A DNA stretch of 29,153 nucleotides from a virus (Duplodnaviria; Caudoviricetes), in IMG/VR virus record IMGVR_UViG_3300011334_000219, positions 1 to 29,153 of that record. One strand, given 5' to 3'. Position numbers and translations under genes: made by a program. This document shows positions 14,794 through 25,203 of the stretch, in pieces. Numbering within the stretch: the first letter of the stretch is position 1; each line of letters starts with the position of its first letter. The notes under the pieces were generated by a model, which ran no database searches, had not been told where the DNA came from, and saw only the letters and a list, made by a program, of their open reading frames with translations.

Positions 14794-14976
14794 ATGGCTA
14801 GTATCGACGAAACCCAAGCGCAGCTTAACACACACGAACAAGTCTGCGCTTTTCGGTACGAAAGTATCTGCGCGCGGATGAAGCGTCTGGAAAGCATTGG
14901 CATGACTGCGACAGGTACAATCATCATGCTGCTGATTGGCATATTAATAAGCCTGCTGCAAAAGGGCGCTGCATGA
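14794..14976 (+). CDS. Small membrane protein (coiled N-terminus plus C-terminal TM), lysis-associated
   Basis: HEQVCAFRY motif followed by the hydrophobic TGTIIMLLIGILISLL; directly before the endolysin. Confidence 0.7.
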   Translation: MASIDETQAQLNTHEQVCAFRYESICARMKRLESIGMTATGTIIMLLIGILISLLQKGAA

Positions 14977-15365
14977 GTATAGTCTTAGGCCAGCGCAGTT
15001 TGTCACGACTTGAAGGCGTACATCCTGATCTGGTGCGCGTAGTCAAGAAGGCGGCTGCGCTGTCAGACCTTGACTTTACGGTGTTAGAAGGCATACGCAG
15101 CGTCGAGCGGCAGAAGCAGCTAGTTAGCCAAGGCGCGTCGAAGACGATGAACTCGCGTCACATCACTGGTCACGCTGTCGATCTAGCGCCTATGATTGCT
15201 GGCGAAGTACGTTGGGATTGGCCGCTGTATCACAAGCTGGCTAAGATAGTTAAGGCCGCTGCGGCGGATGAGAAAGTCCCGCTCCAATGGGGTGGTGATT
15301 GGCGCGCGTTCAAGGATGGCCCACATTGGGAACTGCCTTGGAAGTTTTATCCGAAGGGAAAATAA
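14973..15365 (+). CDS. Endolysin, M15 family (L-Ala-D-Glu-type) Zn peptidase
   Basis: EGIRS..RQ, SRHITGHAVD, WGGDW, DGPHWEL motifs. Confidence 0.92.
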   Translation: MSIVLGQRSLSRLEGVHPDLVRVVKKAAALSDLDFTVLEGIRSVERQKQLVSQGASKTMNSRHITGHAVDLAPMIAGEVRWDWPLYHKLAKIVKAAAADEKVPLQWGGDWRAFKDGPHWELPWKFYPKGK

Positions 15366-15366
15366 C

Positions 15367-15543
15367 ATGAAAATCGTATCTTGGGTAGTAACCCGTTTGA
15401 AAGAGCCTAGCACATACGCAGGCTTCGCTGGCATCGCATTGGCGTTCGGCTTGTCCGACGCGCAGTGGGCTACAATCTCCACGGCAGTTGCCGGTCTGGC
15501 TGGTGTAGCCGCTATGCTTCTGTCTGAAGCACCCGCCGAATAA
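15367..15543 (+). CDS. Putative holin (58 aa, two hydrophobic segments)
   Basis: MKIVSWVVTRLKEPSTYAG...; ATG at 15367 just after the endolysin stop; ORF-track start at 15268 judged too far upstream. Confidence 0.7.
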   Translation: MKIVSWVVTRLKEPSTYAGFAGIALAFGLSDAQWATISTAVAGLAGVAAMLLSEAPAE

Positions 15544-15755
15544 TGAAGTTCCTGACGGCCCTGCTGGGTATCATTAACAAGCTTTTAGGGCTTTGGAATG
15601 AGAACCGTTGGAAGCAGCGGGGCCGTCAAGAAACCATTAAGGAAATGAACGATGCCATTAATCGTCAAATCGAGCTGGGCGAGGCTGCTGTCATCGTCCC
15701 TGATCCTGAGCGCGACGAACGGTTGCGCGACCGTTTCGACCGTTCCCGTAAATAG
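15543..15755 (+). CDS. Putative inner-membrane spanin (Rz-like)
   Basis: Hydrophobic N-terminus, charged helical tail; overlapped by a lipoprotein ORF. Confidence 0.6.
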   Translation: MKFLTALLGIINKLLGLWNENRWKQRGRQETIKEMNDAINRQIELGEAAVIVPDPERDERLRDRFDRSRK

Positions 15756-15885
15756 CTATTGTGCTATTGCGAAGCCTATAAGTTACGACGCGACGAAAGA
15801 CACATCAGAAACTATCAGAGAAATAGAGGCGCATAACAGCGCCTTTATTTGTATCTGTGAGGCTGATTGCCCGAAAGGCAAATAA
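15652..15885 (+). CDS. Putative outer-membrane spanin lipoprotein (Rz1-like)
   Basis: +1-frame overlap with the Rz-like gene; signal-like LLSSSLILSATNG-C; further Cys residues. Confidence 0.65.
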   Translation: MPLIVKSSWARLLSSSLILSATNGCATVSTVPVNSYCAIAKPISYDATKDTSETIREIEAHNSAFICICEADCPKGK

Positions 15886-19026: not shown

Positions 19027-20148
19027 ATGCAACACAGTAAGATTGTCGGCGGTTCGACCGCCAAGCGCGTCATAGCCTGCCCCGGCAGCGTGGCGCTGGT
19101 GGACACCGTACCGCCAAAGCCCAGCAGCAGCTACGCCGACGAAGGCACGCTCCTGCACGACAGCATTGCAACTATACTAGAACGCGACGTTGACCCGTAC
19201 CGCTTGGTTGGTCTGCGTTACGAAGACGTAGAGTTGACGGAAGCGTTAGTCGAGGACAAGCTGATACCGGCGCTGCGTGCGCTGGACGAGATAGACCCGC
19301 AGGGGGAGATGGAATATGCTGTTGAGAGCAGGGTTGGTTTTGGTGATTATTTGCCTAACGTTTTTGGTTCTACCGATCTTCTTGGTCGCCTTGGTGATCG
19401 AGCGATTGTTCTGGATTGGAAATTTGGCGATGGTGTGGCTGTTGAAGCCACCGAAAACGCCCAATTACTCTTCTACGCTGCGGCGTCTAGGCGAACGGCG
19501 GAAACGGCGTGGGCTTTCGACGGAGCCAAAGAAGTAGAACTAATCATTGTCCAGCCGCCTTACGTTAAGCGGTGGGTGACAACGCTGGACCGCGTCGATG
19601 CGTTTGAGAAAGAACTTGCCGCTGCCGTCAAGATTGCTGCGCGGCCAGACGCGCCGTTGGCATCAGGCGACCATTGCAAGTGGTGCGCGGCCAAGCCTGT
19701 CTGCCCTGTTATGACCGGCGCTGTAGACCGCGCGCTGAAGGTCAAGGTCGATGCGCTGCCAATGGATCAGATAGCACACTATCTGGAACAGGCGCCGCTG
19801 GTCGAGGCGTTCATTAAAGATTTGCAGCAGTTGGCGCATGGGCTTCTGGAAAGCGGGGCAAAAGTCCCCGGCTGGAAGCTGGTCAACAAACGCGCAACAC
19901 GGCAGTGGACAAACGAAGATAAAGCTGTAGCTTTCATGTCCGCTGCGGGTGTAGAAGCATGGGCTGATCCAAAGCCGCTGTCGCCTGCACAAGCGGAAAA
20001 GGCTTTGAAGAAAGCCAAAATAGAATTGCCAGCGGACTTAATTGTCGCTGTCTCCAGTGGCTCTACCCTTGCGCCGGAAAGTGATTCCCGGCCAGCGGTC
20101 TTGCAGATCGGACAGATGCTTACCAAAGCTATGTCTAAAATACAGTAA
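19027..20148 (+). CDS. Cas4-like PD-(D/E)XK nuclease (DUF2800-like)
   Basis: CPGS, EGTLLH, FGSTD, DWKFG, QLLFYA and HCKWC...CP motifs; start at MQHSK after GTGAGG. Confidence 0.85.
   Translation: MQHSKIVGGSTAKRVIACPGSVALVDTVPPKPSSSYADEGTLLHDSIATILERDVDPYRLVGLRYEDVELTEALVEDKLIPALRALDEIDPQGEMEYAVESRVGFGDYLPNVFGSTDLLGRLGDRAIVLDWKFGDGVAVEATENAQLLFYAAASRRTAETAWAFDGAKEVELIIVQPPYVKRWVTTLDRVDAFEKELAAAVKIAARPDAPLASGDHCKWCAAKPVCPVMTGAVDRALKVKVDALPMDQIAHYLEQAPLVEAFIKDLQQLAHGLLESGAKVPGWKLVNKRATRQWTNEDKAVAFMSAAGVEAWADPKPLSPAQAEKALKKAKIELPADLIVAVSSGSTLAPESDSRPAVLQIGQMLTKAMSKIQ
19316..19537 (+). CDS. Candidate overprinted membrane protein (73 aa) in the +1 frame of the nuclease gene
   Basis: GGAG 7 nt before the ATG; 43-residue hydrophobic stretch then a basic tail; host-frame third positions become T-rich over this stretch. 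Confidence 0.55.
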   Translation: MLLRAGLVLVIICLTFLVLPIFLVALVIERLFWIGNLAMVWLLKPPKTPNYSSTLRRLGERRKRRGLSTEPKK

Positions 20149-20166: not shown

Positions 20167-20829
20167 ATGTCCAATATCACTACTTTTGGCGGCGCTAACT
20201 TGCCGTCAGTACAATCGCTCTCTGGCGCTTTGCGCTCCATCCAAGCTGAAAGTGCCCCCGGTGGTACAGTCATCCTCAAGATGGACAAGACAGGCCATTG
20301 GGTTTTCGGTGCAGACCAGACCGAAGTCGAGGAAGGCAGCCGCTGGGCAGCTAACCCGTTCTCGTTCGTCCACGGCTACATTGCGTGGGGCAACGGCGAA
20401 GTGCTGGCTGAAAAGCTGGTGCCGGTGTCAGAGCCGCTTCCAGAGCTAGACCCAGCGCCAGCAGGCGCACAGCGCGGTTGGGAAATGCAAGTGGGCATGA
20501 TGCTCGTTTGCACCAACGGCGAAGACAAGGATATGCAGGCACGCTTCACCGCTACGTCAGTCGGTGGCAAACGCGCCGTGCAGGCGTTGGCTGTCGCCAT
20601 CGCTGATCAGGTCGAGAAAGACCAGACTAAGCCTGTGCCATTGCTTGAACTAAAGACCGAGCATTACCAGCACAAGACTTACGGGCGTATCTTTACGCCT
20701 ATCTTTGAGATTACCGATTGGGTGTCTATGGACACCGATTCGGTAGCTGAACCAGAGGAAGCGGTATCGGAAACCGCCGCTGATCCTGAAGCCGCTGAAG
20801 GTGCGCGTCGCCGGCGTCGCGTAGCCTAA
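20167..20829 (+). CDS. Putative single-stranded DNA-binding/annealing protein (220 aa)
   Basis: Between nuclease and polymerase as in APSE-like modules; YQHKTYGRIFTP..W motif and an acidic C-terminal region. Confidence 0.6.
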   Translation: MSNITTFGGANLPSVQSLSGALRSIQAESAPGGTVILKMDKTGHWVFGADQTEVEEGSRWAANPFSFVHGYIAWGNGEVLAEKLVPVSEPLPELDPAPAGAQRGWEMQVGMMLVCTNGEDKDMQARFTATSVGGKRAVQALAVAIADQVEKDQTKPVPLLELKTEHYQHKTYGRIFTPIFEITDWVSMDTDSVAEPEEAVSETAADPEAAEGARRRRRVA

Positions 20830-20833
20830 GTGG

Positions 20834-20872
20834 TGCGAAAGCCGGGGTGATCCACCACCCCGGCGAGTAGCA
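20834..20872 (+). promoter_or_regulatory. Hairpin with a loop E/bulged-G internal loop upstream of the polymerase RBS
   Basis: TGC-GAAA-GCCGGGGTG-ATCCAC-CACCCCGGC-GAGTA-GCA; no U-tract. Confidence 0.55.
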
Positions 20873-20888
20873 GAAGAGTGAGAACTTC

Positions 20889-22844
20889 ATGACTAAATTA
20901 TGGGTAGACTTTGAAACGCGCAGTCGGTGCGACCTTCGCAGCCGCGGCGTGTACAATTACGCGCAGGACGCCAGCACCGACGTGCTGTGTATGTCATACG
21001 CATTTGATGACGAAGACGTGCGGACGTGGCTACCCGGTGAGCCTTTCCCGCAAGCCGTGCGTGATCACAAGGGGCTGGTGTACGCGCACAACGCAGCGTT
21101 TGAGCGTCTGATATTCTGGTATGTCCTTCAGGTCGAGTTTAAGCTGGAGCAGTTTTATTGCACCGCAGCACAAGCCCGCGCTAACTGCGCGCCGGGCAGC
21201 CTTGAGGATGTGGGCCGCTTCGCTGGCGCGACTATGAAAAAAGACCACCGCGGCGGACAACTGATCCGCGCGCTATCCATCCCGCAAGGCGACGGCGAGT
21301 TCCGCGCAGACGCGAAGCTGATGCAAGAGATGGTTGACTATTGCGAACAGGACGTGCGGGCCATGCGTGCCATAGCGCAGGCGCAGCGCCCGCTGTCGGC
21401 TGAAGAGTTGGCTGACTATCATGTCAACGAGCGTATCAACGACCGCGGCGTGCTGCTCGACAGGCCATTGGCGCTGGCAGCGGTTTCGTACTCAAACGCA
21501 GAAACAATTGAAATACAGAACTTGGTGTGCGAGATAACCAACCGCGAAATTGTAAGCGTTCGCAGCGTGCGTATGAAGGACTGGGTTTGGGACCGCGTTG
21601 GGCCTGAATCGCGGAAACTTATGACGCTTATTAAAAAAGAACGTGAGCATAGATGTCTAGATAAAAACGCGCGCGCAAACTTGCTGGCGTTAGCGGAGGA
21701 GAACCCTGATGAAGTGCCGGCGGAAGTGGCGGATGTTATCCAGTGCGCGGACGATCTGTGGGCATCGTCCGTTGCGAAGTTCCAACGTGCAGCGGCGCTT
21801 GCTGATGAGGAGGATTTTCGCGTTAGAGGAGCGTTCGTATTTGCAGGAGGTAGCGCTACTGGCCGCGCTGCATCGTATGGGCTTCAGGTCCATAACTTCC
21901 CAAGAAAGTGCGCCGCAGACCCTGCATTAGTACGGCAGGCTATGGTGCGCGGGCATCAAATTGTCCCTGACCATGGTCGCCGTGTAACTGACGTGCTGAA
22001 AGGTATGCTGCGCCCTGCGCTGATGGCCGGCAAAGGCAAGCGCCTTGTTGTTGCCGATTGGGCTGCGATTGAAGCGCGTGTGACGCCGTGGGCGTCCGAC
22101 AGTATCTTTGGTGAACGCAAGCTGGACATCTTTGCCAAGGGCGAAGACGTGTACAAGCACAACGCTATGGCGACCTTTCATGTCGGTTACGGCGATGTCA
22201 CTACAGACCAGCGCCAGATCGGCAAGGTGCAAGAGTTGGCCTGTGGCTTTGCCGGCGGCGTTGGAGCGTTCGCCAGCATGGGCCGCATTTACGGCTTGAT
22301 GATGTCAGAGAGCGACGCAAAGCGCATGGTTGACGCATGGCGCAGGGCTAACCAGTGGGCCGTGCCGTACTGGTCGGGTCTGGAAGAGACTTATATGCGC
22401 GCCATGCGGAACAAGAACCGTGAGTTTACAATAGGCCGCATCACATATTTATTTGATGGACTGCATCTTTGGTATGCCCTTCCGTCTGGACGTGTGTTAT
22501 GCTATCCTTTCGCCCGTTTCGACGAGGAAGGCAACCTGACCTACGCGAAGGCTTCTTGGAAGCCCGCCGCGGACGCGAAGGAGTGGCCGAGGGCGCGGCT
22601 ATGGCGCGGTTTGGCGTGTGAGAACATCACGCAAGCTATCGCTAATGACTTGCTGCGCTACGCCTTGCGGCAGTTGGACGATACGGTACTTCATATTCAC
22701 GATGAAATCGTCTTGGAAGTGCCAGAAGCAGATGCAGAAGCCGCAGCAGCGCGGCTGGTGCAGGTTATGTGTACGCCGCCACCTTGGGCATCGGGGCTAC
22801 CCCTGAACGCAGAAGTGGCAATTATGGAACGTTATGGCAAATAA
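20889..22844 (+). CDS. Family A DNA polymerase (APSE/SPO2-like) with 3'-5' exonuclease domain
   Basis: DFETRS, AHNAAFE, YCEQDV exonuclease motifs; ATGR, DWAAIEAR, RQIGKVQELACGF and HIHDEIV polymerase motifs. Confidence 0.95.
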   Translation: MTKLWVDFETRSRCDLRSRGVYNYAQDASTDVLCMSYAFDDEDVRTWLPGEPFPQAVRDHKGLVYAHNAAFERLIFWYVLQVEFKLEQFYCTAAQARANCAPGSLEDVGRFAGATMKKDHRGGQLIRALSIPQGDGEFRADAKLMQEMVDYCEQDVRAMRAIAQAQRPLSAEELADYHVNERINDRGVLLDRPLALAAVSYSNAETIEIQNLVCEITNREIVSVRSVRMKDWVWDRVGPESRKLMTLIKKEREHRCLDKNARANLLALAEENPDEVPAEVADVIQCADDLWASSVAKFQRAAALADEEDFRVRGAFVFAGGSATGRAASYGLQVHNFPRKCAADPALVRQAMVRGHQIVPDHGRRVTDVLKGMLRPALMAGKGKRLVVADWAAIEARVTPWASDSIFGERKLDIFAKGEDVYKHNAMATFHVGYGDVTTDQRQIGKVQELACGFAGGVGAFASMGRIYGLMMSESDAKRMVDAWRRANQWAVPYWSGLEETYMRAMRNKNREFTIGRITYLFDGLHLWYALPSGRVLCYPFARFDEEGNLTYAKASWKPAADAKEWPRARLWRGLACENITQAIANDLLRYALRQLDDTVLHIHDEIVLEVPEADAEAAAARLVQVMCTPPPWASGLPLNAEVAIMERYGK

Positions 22845-22854
22845 GGAGCAAGCG

Positions 22855-25203
22855 ATGAGTGAGGATCGCCAGAAGTTTATAGATTATATAGTTGGATTAG
22901 CCGCTGATACAGTGGGTGAAACGGCTTTGTTAGTGCGTCAGAAGCCAATACGCGGCGATGACGGCAACCTAATCTACCATGCAGATGGTGCGCCGAAGGC
23001 GACCTTTCCTGCGTTCCTGCCCGAAAAGGCACGGATTAAAGATGGCGAGGCTTGGTATATCAACACAGGTTCGTTCGTCGTTGACCGCTTTGTAGACGGC
23101 AAGCCGGCTGCTAAGTCCAGCAACGTCGAGTTCGTCCTGTTTATGATGCTGGATGACATTGGCACAAAGTCTAAGACGCCGCCGCTTGACCCGACATGGA
23201 TACTGGAAACTAGCGAAGGTTCGTTCCAGTGGGGCTATGCGTTTAACGAGCAACCAAACAAAGGCGATTTCTGCGCTGCCGTCAAAGCTATTGCAGATGC
23301 GGGCTATACCGACCCCGGCGCGACTAACGCTGTCCGCAACTGCCGTATCCCTGACAGCATTAACCTGAAGCGCGGGCGCGGCAACTTTCCCGCACGGCTG
23401 GTCGAGTTCCACCCAGAGCGTGAATACACTTTAGAGCAGATTTGCACTGCTTTGGGTGTTACGCCAGAAGAAGGCGACACAGCGGACTATAAAGCCGTAA
23501 AGATACGCGACACTGGACAGGACAACGTCCTGACATGGTTAAGCGAACAGAACCTAGTTCTTAGCGCACCTAACAACGACGGCTGGTGTGGCATTGTCTG
23601 CCCTAACCATCACGAACACAGCGACGGCATGATCGAGGCGCGCTACAAGCCGCTGGATCGTTCGTTCTGCTGCTACCACGGCCATTGCCAAGACTTAGAC
23701 AGCCGCACGTTTCTTGATTGGGTCGCCGCTAACGGTGGGCCGCAGGCAACGCCCGGCTTGCGTGATGAGCTAATCGCTGAACGCATGGCGTCGATGATGG
23801 ACAAGATTTCACCAACGGAAGCCTTCCCTGATGAAGCCGCAGCGCGTGTGCGTGAGGTCGAAAAGAAAGAAGCAGGACGGCTGGAACAAAGCGAGTGGTT
23901 TGATCGGTTCGCTTACATACAGTCTGATGACTGCTATTTCGACATGGTCACACGTCAAGAGATAGCGCGTAACGTCTTCAACGCTTTGTTCCGTCACATT
24001 GACTGTCGTTCCATCCACAAGAAAACGCAGCGTGTGCAAGCGTCCATCTATTTTGATGAGCGTCGGCAGGATCGCGGCGCGCCAGCATTGGCAGCGGTGA
24101 CGTTTGCCGCCGGCGATGACGTTCTGGTGACGCGCGACGGGTTGGTTTACGGCAACAGGTGGACAAACGCCCGCCCTGATGTAGCTGATAGCGACAAGAT
24201 TGCGGATCATGATGTCGAGCCTTGGCTAGCGCATTGCCGCAATCTGATCGCGGATGATAAAGAGTTAGACCATATCCTTAACGCTATGGCGTTCAAGATA
24301 CAAAACCCAACGGTCAAGATCAATCACGCCATCCTTATTGGCGGCGATGAAGGCGCGGGCAAGGATACTATATTCCAGCCGTTCCTGTGGGCGCTAGGCG
24401 GCAAGAACTGGCGCAACAGGTCAGTCATTGAGGCTGGCGGATTGGAAAGCCAGTGGGGCTATGCGCTTGAGGCTGAAGTGGTCATCCTGAATGAGTTAAA
24501 GGAACCAGAGGCAAGAGAGCGCCGCGCTATGGCTAACAAGCTAAAGCCGCTGATCGCTGCGCCACCTGAAACGCTGTCGGTCAACCGTAAGGGTATGCAC
24601 CCCTATGATTTGGTCAATCGCTTAATGGTGATCGCTTACACGAACGATTCGCTGCCTATCACGCTGCCAACGCAGGATCGCCGTTGGTTCTGCGTCTGGA
24701 CACACGCGCCGCGCATGACAACGCCAGCAGCCGACGCGCTGTGGGGCTGGTATAAGACAGGCGGCTATGAAAAGTGCGCCGCTTGGCTGCACCAGCGCGA
24801 CGTGTCGGCGTTCAACCCTGCTGCTGCACCGCCAGTGACCGAATGGAAGCTGAACATGGTCGAGCATGGCATGAGCGCAGCGGAAAGCTATCTGGTAGAG
24901 TTGATGCGTAATCGGTCGGGTATGTTTGCGGATGGTGTCATCGGTGGGCCGTTCCATCGTCTTGGCGATATACTCGCGCCGTTCATGCCAGCGGGATTAA
25001 AGGTTCCGCAAGCTGCGCTGCTTCATGCGTTAAAGGAGGCTGGATGGGTTGACATGGGGCGGATCGGTTCGGTTGAACACCCCACTAAAAAGCATATCTT
25101 TGTCGCGCCGGATGCGCTTCAGAAATATAGCAAGTCCGACTTGCGCCGCATGGCGGAAAACTTACCTACAAGCAGCAATATGCCAACGATAGGCAGGAAT
25201 TGA
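22855..25203 (+). CDS. Primase-helicase (RepB-like primase domain, Zn-binding region, SF3/D5-like ATPase)
   Basis: MLDD and ETSEGSFQW; CPNHHEH...CYHGHC; GDEGAGKD Walker A, ILNE, DRRW; start at MSEDRQ after AAGGAG. Confidence 0.88.
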   Translation: MSEDRQKFIDYIVGLAADTVGETALLVRQKPIRGDDGNLIYHADGAPKATFPAFLPEKARIKDGEAWYINTGSFVVDRFVDGKPAAKSSNVEFVLFMMLDDIGTKSKTPPLDPTWILETSEGSFQWGYAFNEQPNKGDFCAAVKAIADAGYTDPGATNAVRNCRIPDSINLKRGRGNFPARLVEFHPEREYTLEQICTALGVTPEEGDTADYKAVKIRDTGQDNVLTWLSEQNLVLSAPNNDGWCGIVCPNHHEHSDGMIEARYKPLDRSFCCYHGHCQDLDSRTFLDWVAANGGPQATPGLRDELIAERMASMMDKISPTEAFPDEAAARVREVEKKEAGRLEQSEWFDRFAYIQSDDCYFDMVTRQEIARNVFNALFRHIDCRSIHKKTQRVQASIYFDERRQDRGAPALAAVTFAAGDDVLVTRDGLVYGNRWTNARPDVADSDKIADHDVEPWLAHCRNLIADDKELDHILNAMAFKIQNPTVKINHAILIGGDEGAGKDTIFQPFLWALGGKNWRNRSVIEAGGLESQWGYALEAEVVILNELKEPEARERRAMANKLKPLIAAPPETLSVNRKGMHPYDLVNRLMVIAYTNDSLPITLPTQDRRWFCVWTHAPRMTTPAADALWGWYKTGGYEKCAAWLHQRDVSAFNPAAAPPVTEWKLNMVEHGMSAAESYLVELMRNRSGMFADGVIGGPFHRLGDILAPFMPAGLKVPQAALLHALKEAGWVDMGRIGSVEHPTKKHIFVAPDALQKYSKSDLRRMAENLPTSSNMPTIGRN

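What the first reader, a model, noticed from the sequence alone, without database searches (positions are those of the whole stretch)
19316..19537. Overprinted membrane-protein gene hidden in the Cas4-like nuclease
Seen: a +1-frame ORF (MLLRAGLVLVIICLTFLVLPIFLVALVIERLFWIGNLAMVWLL then a basic tail) with GGAG 7 nt before its ATG. By my hand count 29 of the 43 nuclease codons from 19315 end in T, whereas flanking codons mostly end in C or G. Those T bases are the second positions of the hydrophobic codons, and the bias starts at this ATG. Inference: selection for a second, membrane protein across the nuclease catalytic motifs, perhaps for superinfection exclusion or lysis timing.
Basis: partly seen in the sequence, partly recalled or inferred. 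Interest (0 to 1): 0.7.

Follow-up and report, generated by a model that had tools for sequence, protein, structure and literature searches.

The report
Membrane gene hidden inside phage nuclease
Inside the catalytic core of a phage's DNA-cutting gene, a second reading frame keeps its own start signal and a water-repelling stretch across many related phages, so it is likely a real small membrane-protein gene written over an older one, and it possibly serves to keep rival phages out of the infected cell.

Summary
Confirmed and extended. 29 of 43 nuclease codons from 19315 end in T (recoding null: mean 10, maximum 22), and GGAG lies 7 nt before the ATG. An open frame and an ATG alone are common by chance (21%, 45%).

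Among 200 related nucleases (≥50% identity), 168 keep a hydrophobic +1 segment. Of these 153 have a start with a Shine-Dalgarno site, against 6 of 27 without the segment. The start moves between at least five positions, and a new GGAG usually sits 7 nt ahead. Codons that would make +1 stops are absent (0 of 524; 11% outside), while the same codons that make Tyr occur normally. The preference for T tracks the +1 residue it creates. Distant DUF2800 genes lack the bias (1 of 63). RNA structure and an antisense gene fit poorly.

This is likely a de novo overprinted inner-membrane protein, often lost, built like phiX174 E but in the replication operon of a tailed phage that has its own endolysin and spanin. 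Superinfection exclusion is my best guess (0.38); translation and function are untested. This scan noted the same feature earlier on another genome (e1-6327740).

The parts
19027..20148 (+). Host gene: DUF2800 / Cas4-like PD-(D/E)XK nuclease, 373 aa, first gene of the rightward replication operon
   Evidence: PF10926, PF12705; phrog_69 exonuclease
19302..19308 (+). Shine-Dalgarno site of the hidden gene (GGGGGAG; GGAG ends 7 nt before the ATG), written into nuclease codons Gly93-Glu94
   Evidence: pairing energy -8.8, the strongest of 25 start sites scored in the window; GGG 20 of 22 and GAG 22 of 22 in the close clade
19316..19537 (+). Overprinted +1-frame ORF, 73 aa; its ATG is formed by Tyr97 TAT plus the next G
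19334..19444 (+). Hydrophobic core, residues 7-43: predicted membrane helix 7-28 with Pro20, then Glu29-Arg30 and a second hydrophobic stretch; this is the part under selection
19445..19534 (+). Basic C-terminal tail (whole protein net +10); not conserved in length, no synonymous constraint
   Evidence: (ratio 0.89, p 0.32)
19324..19422 (+). Nuclease motif residues E100, D117, D130 and K132 lying under the hydrophobic segment; their reading as catalytic comes from general knowledge of PD-(D/E)XK nucleases
   Evidence: invariant in alignment A1; positions
14973..15885 (+). Context: separate lysis cassette with endolysin, a 58-aa holin candidate (no family match), an i-spanin candidate and an Rz-like spanin
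20167..25203 (+). Context: downstream genes of the same direction: 220-aa gene in the position of an ssDNA-binding protein (inferred; no Pfam match), family A DNA polymerase, primase-helicase

Best explanation
The +1 frame at 19316-19537 is likely a translated gene overprinted on the catalytic core of the phage's DUF2800 nuclease; its product is predicted to sit in the host inner membrane, where it possibly blocks the entry of DNA from later-arriving phages (superinfection exclusion). Shown: a start codon with a Shine-Dalgarno site, selection against +1 stops and for membrane-compatible +1 residues over about 37 codons, restriction to one phage clade, repeated loss, and repeated relocation of the start. 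Inferred: ribosomes initiate internally on the nuclease-polymerase-primase mRNA, so the protein would be made early, together with the replication genes. Predicted: the 37-residue hydrophobic core with basic ends inserts as a helical hairpin, or as one membrane helix plus a surface helix. Untested: exclusion of the T4 Imm type (recalled), chosen by elimination. Odds: about 0.92 that the gene is real, and about 0.4 of that for exclusion.
For: Stop avoidance with an internal control: A-ending Leu/Val/Ile codons before a purine (a +1 stop) are 0 of 524 inside against 842 of 7364 outside; before a pyrimidine (+1 Tyr) 48 of 452 against 341 of 3142, in 154 genes with start+SD. The T-over-C odds ratio follows the +1 outcome: 11.4 for Leu vs Pro, 6.3 for Leu/Phe vs Ser, 3.9 for Ile/Met vs Thr, 2.4 for Val vs Ala (120 genes). 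Close clade: 36 third-position changes against 80.9 expected; Leu/Arg first-position changes, silent in both frames, 18 against 3 third-position changes inside and 31 against 38 outside. Start+SD in 146 of 168 hydrophobic genes against 5 of 27 others, 153 and 6 when starts further upstream are counted. Of 54 hydrophobic genes lacking the usual start+SD, 34 have an alternative, against 4 of 114 that have it. Independent sister pairs agree in 21 of 28, p 0.006. For exclusion rather than lysis: early-operon position, a separate endolysin and spanin, retention beside four endolysin families, and loss with the same flanking gene order in sisters L054 and L065.
Against: No direct evidence of translation: RNA-library contigs of relatives cover the region but cannot show frame, strand or level. 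In the 37 more distant genomes with a start, third-position change is not suppressed (1.07), so only bulk hydrophobicity is kept there. No helical periodicity in the T pattern (p 0.61). 15 of 168 hydrophobic genes have no start+SD at my threshold, and 7 of 28 sister pairs go the wrong way. No member of the alignment matches an exclusion family. AlphaFold gives one straight helix 2-43 with pTM 0.39, not a hairpin. The host and lifestyle are unknown. 6 of the 10 non-carriers with a visible endolysin share one endolysin family, against 8 of 50 carriers, though they are close kin.
Confidence: 0.38

Rival explanations
1. A real gene whose product inhibits a host cell-envelope enzyme, as phiX174 E inhibits MraY or leviviral Sgls inhibit MurJ, weakening the wall or halting division during infection.
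For: Same construction as E and the Sgls: +1 frame, T shifted from third to second position, N-terminal membrane segment (PMC8227390 and PMC7693330, passages). Pro20 is fixed at a fourfold site in 22 of 22 close genomes and Glu29 through two different Arg codons, which suggests a specific contact in this clade.
Against: No match to E or any Sgl among solved structures at E up to 10. The phage has an endolysin and spanin. Pro20 is Leu in most distant carriers, and their core is loosely constrained. A strong SD in a replication operon would risk early lysis (inference).
Confidence: 0.22
2. A real membrane protein with another host-takeover role, such as blocking a membrane-bound defence sensor, tuning membrane potential, or tethering the replication machinery.
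For: Early-operon position and patchy loss (16 changes on the tree) fit an accessory protein useful in some hosts only. The nested bacterial microprotein GndA binds respiratory complexes (PMC11230408, abstract).
Against: Many versions end at residue 30-50 and have no soluble domain to tether anything. No positive evidence for any target.
Confidence: 0.17
3. A holin or antiholin that sets lysis timing.
For: Size, hydrophobic core and basic tail resemble small holins (recalled); the cassette's 58-aa holin candidate has no family match.
Against: It lies about 3.8 kb from the cassette, beyond oppositely transcribed genes. It is kept beside four unrelated endolysin families. Only 1 of 85 members has a weak holin hit, E 0.037. 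The tail is dispensable.
Confidence: 0.1
4. No second protein: the T-rich stretch is selected at the nucleotide level (unstructured mRNA, an origin, a binding site) and the ORF is a by-product.
For: The region folds less than synonymous shuffles (z about +0.9). T-ending codons give hydrophobicity and openness automatically. One weak promoter-like match starts at 19322.
Against: A nucleotide preference does not explain why the same A-ending codons are absent only where they make a +1 stop, why G is avoided only where it makes Arg (0.14 of expected; 1.01 where it mostly makes Gly), or why start and SD relocate together. No stable structure (z -1.18) and no Rfam match.
Confidence: 0.06
5. The +1 segment is reached by ribosomal frameshifting or slippage, giving a nuclease N-terminus fused to a membrane anchor.
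For: Six database proteins are chimeras of the nuclease and the +1 frame (P0005, P0006, P0007, P0013, P0019, P0021).
Against: They switch frame at different places, and the three with counts rest on one contig each, as indel errors would. The conserved signal is a start codon (ATG or TTG) 7 nt behind GGAG at several sites, not a slippery site.
Confidence: 0.03
6. The selected gene is the codon-aligned antisense ORF 19246-19464.
For: It is open in the window and shares the same wobble positions as the +1 frame.
Against: Its TTG start is present in 5 of 22 close genomes. Antisense stops are 43 against 69 expected, while +1 stops are 4 against 98; 15 of 94 ATG-bearing genes have an antisense stop in the region.
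Confidence: 0.01

Closest known systems
phiX174 lysis gene E nested in gene D
   Same: Same-strand overprint in which high T at third positions of the old frame becomes second-position T, giving a Leu-rich membrane segment (PMC8227390, passages).
   Different: E is the lysis gene of a small ssDNA phage and inhibits MraY (10.1101/2023.10.16.562596, passages). This gene is in a tailed dsDNA phage with its own endolysin and spanin, lies over nuclease motif residues, is often lost, and gave no match to E.
Leviviral single-gene lysis proteins embedded in rep (+1 frame)
   Same: Small ORFs with SD and a membrane segment; 21 of 33 active ones lie in the +1 frame of a replication gene (PMC7693330, passages).
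   Different: Those are in RNA phages and mostly in poorly conserved parts of rep, with only two active ones in the conserved motifs. Here the overprint covers the most conserved motifs and is kept across nucleases down to about 50% identity.
T4 Imm-type superinfection exclusion proteins (recalled, from no call)
   Same: Small, early inner-membrane proteins that are dispensable for growth.
   Different: They are free-standing genes; no member of the alignment matches such a family; exclusion is untested here.
E. coli GndA
   Same: Frameshifted same-strand microprotein nested in an enzyme gene and associated with the membrane (PMC11230408, abstract and outline).
   Different: Bacterial, 36 aa, heat-shock role; no sequence relation was tested.

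Membership tests
De novo overprinted gene | ORF wholly inside another gene, in another frame | tested here: met
   19316-19537 in the +1 frame of 19027-20148
De novo overprinted gene | Narrower distribution than the host gene | tested here: met
   T bias in 152 of 200 genes at ≥50% identity, 0 of 1 at 39%, 1 of 63 below 36%; no free-standing copy at E below 0.07 in 120 long loci
De novo overprinted gene | Own translation signals, kept or rebuilt | tested here: met
   153 of 168 against 6 of 27; GGAG 7 nt before the start at four sites
De novo overprinted gene | Selection on the second frame | tested here: met
   synonymous suppression only in the close clade
De novo overprinted gene | Protein detected | not testable with these tools
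   only RNA-library contigs were available
phiX174 E / single-gene lysis proteins | +1-nested ORF with a membrane segment made by third-position T | tested here: met
phiX174 E / single-gene lysis proteins | Sequence or fold similarity to E or a known Sgl | tested here: not met
   none among 11 PDB hits at E up to 10; 0 Pfam families for the window protein; 0 viral fold matches
phiX174 E / single-gene lysis proteins | Sole lysis gene of the phage | tested here: not met
   endolysin phrog_465 and Rz-like spanin phrog_1275 in the window
phiX174 E / single-gene lysis proteins | Causes lysis or inhibits MraY/MurJ | not testable with these tools
   needs expression
Holin / antiholin | Located in the lysis cassette and tied to it | tested here: not met
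   in the replication operon; found with four endolysin families
Holin / antiholin | Match to a holin family | tested here: not met
   1 of 85 members at E 0.037, below significance; none in PHROGs or NCBIfam
T4 Imm-type exclusion proteins | Small inner-membrane protein with two membrane helices (recalled) | tested here: inconclusive
   37-residue hydrophobic core with basic ends, but one continuous helix in the model
T4 Imm-type exclusion proteins | Match to an exclusion family | tested here: not met
T4 Imm-type exclusion proteins | Blocks entry of superinfecting DNA | not testable with these tools
   needs a bench assay
DUF2800 / Cas4-like nuclease (host gene) | Profile match above cut-off | tested here: met
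   PF10926 190 bits, PF12705 52 bits
DUF2800 / Cas4-like nuclease (host gene) | Four conserved cysteines and PD-(D/E)XK motifs (PMC5704561, passages) | tested here: met
   C18, C217, C220, C226 and E100, D117, D130, K132
DUF2800 / Cas4-like nuclease (host gene) | Nuclease activity | not testable with these tools
   no solved relative by sequence

The most novel reading that the evidence does not exclude
A membrane-active protein family was born de novo across the active-site motifs of a phage nuclease and is being kept, lost and re-started over and over in one large phage clade (about 16 state changes and 15 start moves on the tree), with synonymous codons alone switching it on or off. In the window's subclade it has hardened into a sequence-specific inhibitor of a host envelope protein, that is an E-like protein antibiotic or a new exclusion factor in a tailed phage, missed by annotation.
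Probability: 0.45. Interest if true: 0.85.

Novelty: new variant of a known kind. Interest (0 to 1): 0.72.

Why it matters
Well-supported nested overprints over enzyme catalytic cores are known mainly from tiny RNA and ssDNA phages. This one is in a roughly 38-kb tailed phage clade with more than a thousand database records, where carriers and non-carriers are sister genomes. That makes gene birth, start-site turnover and gene loss measurable against a fixed protein background. It also supplies over 150 natural variants of an unstudied small membrane protein that can be expressed alone in laboratory E. coli. Proteins built this way (E, Sgls) have pointed to antibacterial targets before. The stop-versus-Tyr codon test used here could be run across phage families to find more such hidden genes.

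Tried and rejected
Helical periodicity of the T pattern: none, p 0.61. RNA structure: single-strand z -1.18, weak consensus folds, no Rfam match. Family, structure and look-alike searches for the +1 protein gave nothing significant: Pfam, PHROGs, NCBIfam, PDB sequences, viral folds, ESM Atlas best score 0.80, a lead only, annotated phages.

Protein databases gave 3, 7 and 19 hits. By sequence these are +1 products of the same locus, nuclease/+1 chimeras, one chimera with an unrelated N-terminus, and two repeat proteins. Their genomic context was not available, so a free-standing copy is not excluded.

A search for a gene that replaces the overprint in non-carriers found none consistent (12 non-carriers among 120 long loci, many truncated). 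Faster-than-neutral loss of T in non-carriers was considered and not claimed, because GC-biased sites saturate. Host assignment failed: 18 genome hits carry mutually inconsistent MAG labels. RNA runs: 4 of 22 were laid, all contigs, with no information on translation. A DNA scan with the +1 alignment could not be built.

Rows dropped: L042; L042 again; L178, L179 and L307; near-duplicates in each set (81 to 66, 161 to 132, 343 to 264); 5 intermediate genes left out of the carrier/non-carrier counts. Three genes with indels in the region (L072, L128, L130) may have shifted positions.

Full report
SETTING. The window is a linear virus record, 78% complete, with a P22-like coat protein. A late module ends in a lysis cassette: endolysin 14973-15365 and an Rz-like spanin 15652-15885, with a 58-aa holin candidate that matches no family. 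A rightward replication module starts with the nuclease at 19027-20148 (DUF2800, PDDEXK_1), followed by a 220-aa gene, a family A polymerase and a primase-helicase. The closest annotated phage is a 38.8-kb podovirus at 51% identity, where no nested gene is annotated. The host is unknown.

OBSERVATION. The ORF, the GGAG 7 nt upstream and the count of 29 T-ending codons of 43 are correct. The T run is far beyond chance: mean 10.4 and maximum 22 in 20,000 synonymous recodings. An open frame (21%) and the ATG (45%) are not unusual, and third-position T makes any +1 frame hydrophobic and stop-free. The case therefore rests on homologues.

DISTRIBUTION. Five scans and annotated records gave 345 loci. 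Three were dropped and 264 genes, window included, remained after removing near-duplicates. The T bias (p<0.01) is present in 34 of 34 genes at ≥80% identity, 40 of 44 at 70-80%, 65 of 93 at 60-70%, 13 of 29 at 50-60%, 0 of 1 at 39% and 1 of 63 below 36%. The second frame is confined to one clade, while the nuclease family is far wider: the pattern expected of overprinting. Among six other gene families used as controls (up to 60 members each), none matched the nuclease window's combination of T excess (1.8) and stop loss (3 against 50); the nearest is a weaker spot in the polymerase.

SELECTION ACTS ON THE +1 PROTEIN. (a) A-ending Leu/Val/Ile codons make a +1 stop before a purine and a +1 Tyr before a pyrimidine. 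In residues 7-30 of 154 genes with start+SD the first kind is 0 of 524 (842 of 7364 outside) and the second 48 of 452 (341 of 3142 outside); over all 200 genes it is 4 of 681 and 67 of 587. (b) The T-over-C odds ratio is 11.4 where C gives Pro, 6.3 for Ser, 3.9 for Thr and 2.4 for Ala. G is avoided where it gives Arg (0.14 of expected), not where it mostly gives Gly (1.01). The 27 non-hydrophobic genes show no such pattern, with 21 stops against 25 expected. (c) In 22 close genomes third-position changes are 36 against 80.9 expected in codons 97-139 (p 5e-5), while Leu/Arg first-position changes, silent in both frames, run 18 to 3 inside (5 columns) and 31 to 38 outside. Against: the 37 more distant start-bearing genomes show no suppression (1.07), the tail shows none (0.89), and there is no helical periodicity. 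Distant carriers thus keep bulk hydrophobicity only, while the window's clade also fixes residues such as Pro20 and Glu29.

START SIGNALS MOVE WITH THE GENE. Of 200 genes at ≥50%, 168 have a hydrophobic +1 segment, 27 do not and 5 are intermediate. A start with SD pairing of -4 kcal/mol or better lies within 15 codons upstream to 6 downstream in 146 of 168 and 5 of 27; counting starts 16-35 codons upstream gives 153 and 6. At the window's position, start and SD occur together in 112 hydrophobic genes, SD alone in 1, start alone in 18 and neither in 37. Of 54 genes lacking start+SD there, 34 have one elsewhere, against 4 of 114. GGAG sits exactly 7 nt before the start at four different sites (13, 69, 6 and 8 genes), each built from synonymous or tolerated nuclease codons. 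The start is ATG from Tyr or TTG from Ile. These counts are not independent; 28 independent sister pairs gave 21 in the expected direction, p 0.006. On a tree built without the overlap region there are 16 changes in hydrophobic state and 15 in start site; deep nodes are weakly supported and the root state is unresolved, so I cannot separate one gain with many losses from some regains. The window's SD is the strongest of 25 starts scored. The anti-SD motif used is a generic recalled one.

RIVALS TO CODING. RNA structure: z -1.18, no Rfam family, and less folding than synonymous shuffles. Antisense ORF: start in 5 of 22 close genomes, stops 43 against 69 where +1 stops are 4 against 98. Frameshift fusion: chimeric database proteins switch at different places. 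I put a real +1 gene at about 0.92. Translation has not been observed.

THE PROTEIN. A short basic N-terminus is followed by an almost uncharged core at residues 7-43 and a basic stretch at 44-50. The C-terminal length varies from 30 to 114, most often 50, 75 or 73. The model is a helix 2-43 and a helix 50-66, mean pLDDT 78.8, pTM 0.39. By the positive-inside rule (general knowledge) both ends would face the cytoplasm, which suggests a hairpin, though Glu29-Arg30 in the window's clade fits one membrane helix plus a surface helix equally well. No family, solved structure or free-standing relative was found; gene callers have occasionally called the +1 frame without a name.

FUNCTION. It would be made with the replication genes, it is dispensable (sisters L054 and L065 differ in it but share the flanking gene order), and it accompanies four unrelated endolysin families (23, 14, 8 and 5 carriers). 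That argues against a holin, an antiholin or a sole lysis gene. The lack of a conserved soluble part argues against a tether. An early, optional, loosely constrained membrane protein fits superinfection exclusion of the T4 Imm type (recalled) best, at 0.38 overall. An E-like inhibitor of an envelope enzyme follows at 0.22, and other host-takeover roles at 0.17. This ranking is by elimination; no result points to a target.

COMPARISON AND NOVELTY. It is built like phiX174 E in D (PMC8227390, passages; 10.1101/2023.10.16.562596, passages) and like leviviral Sgls in the +1 frame of rep (PMC7693330, passages), but it is not a member of either by sequence or role. GndA is a cellular parallel (PMC11230408, abstract and outline). 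The host gene has the four cysteines and motifs described for Cas4-family nucleases (PMC5704561, passages). Ten literature searches listed no paper on a gene nested in a DUF2800 nuclease; I saw listings and abstract openings only, the library lacks most subscription papers, and I opened no supplements. This scan recorded the same feature on another genome (e1-6327740); I met that note after and do not count it as support. Verdict: a new variant of a known kind, interest 0.72.

Noticed in passing
window about 21790-21930, polymerase codons 300-340 (+1 ORF 21709-21930): A second, weaker spot: T excess 1.5 and 0 +1 stops against 16 expected in 60 homologues, with several SD-like words. The +1 product is not hydrophobic and has no conserved start.
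   Followed up: partly
window 19048-19150, nuclease codons 8-41: Third positions are nearly fixed as C or G in 131 homologues and the stretch folds better than synonymous shuffles (z -1.5 to -1.7); +1 and +2 frames have stops in many genomes. Possibly a regulatory RNA or DNA element near the divergent promoter region.
   Followed up: partly
L448, L450, L447 (long versions of L209, L211, L208), 2.0-2.7 kb upstream of the nuclease, minus strand: A clade lacking the hidden gene carries two free-standing 56-76 aa hydrophobic ORFs; whether they substitute for it is unknown.
   Followed up: no
L204 and L191; L054 and L065: Sister genes with 98% identical nuclease residues in the overlap differ one-sidedly at third positions (6 to 0 and 11 to 1 T losses): recent switching of the hidden gene, or allele exchange.
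   Followed up: partly
window 15543-15885: Overlapping i-spanin candidate and Rz-like spanin at the end of the lysis cassette.
   Followed up: no
window 14794-14973 and 15367-15543: Two small hydrophobic genes flank the endolysin; neither matches Pfam or PHROGs, and either could be the holin.
   Followed up: partly
L475 (long version of L238): Polymerase and primase lie upstream and inverted relative to the nuclease, unlike the other genomes shown.
   Followed up: no
L176:3001-3552: A match covering only nuclease residues 1-185, without the hidden gene, in a 4.2-Mb betaproteobacterial chromosome: a possible prophage remnant and the only chromosome-scale host hint.
   Followed up: no
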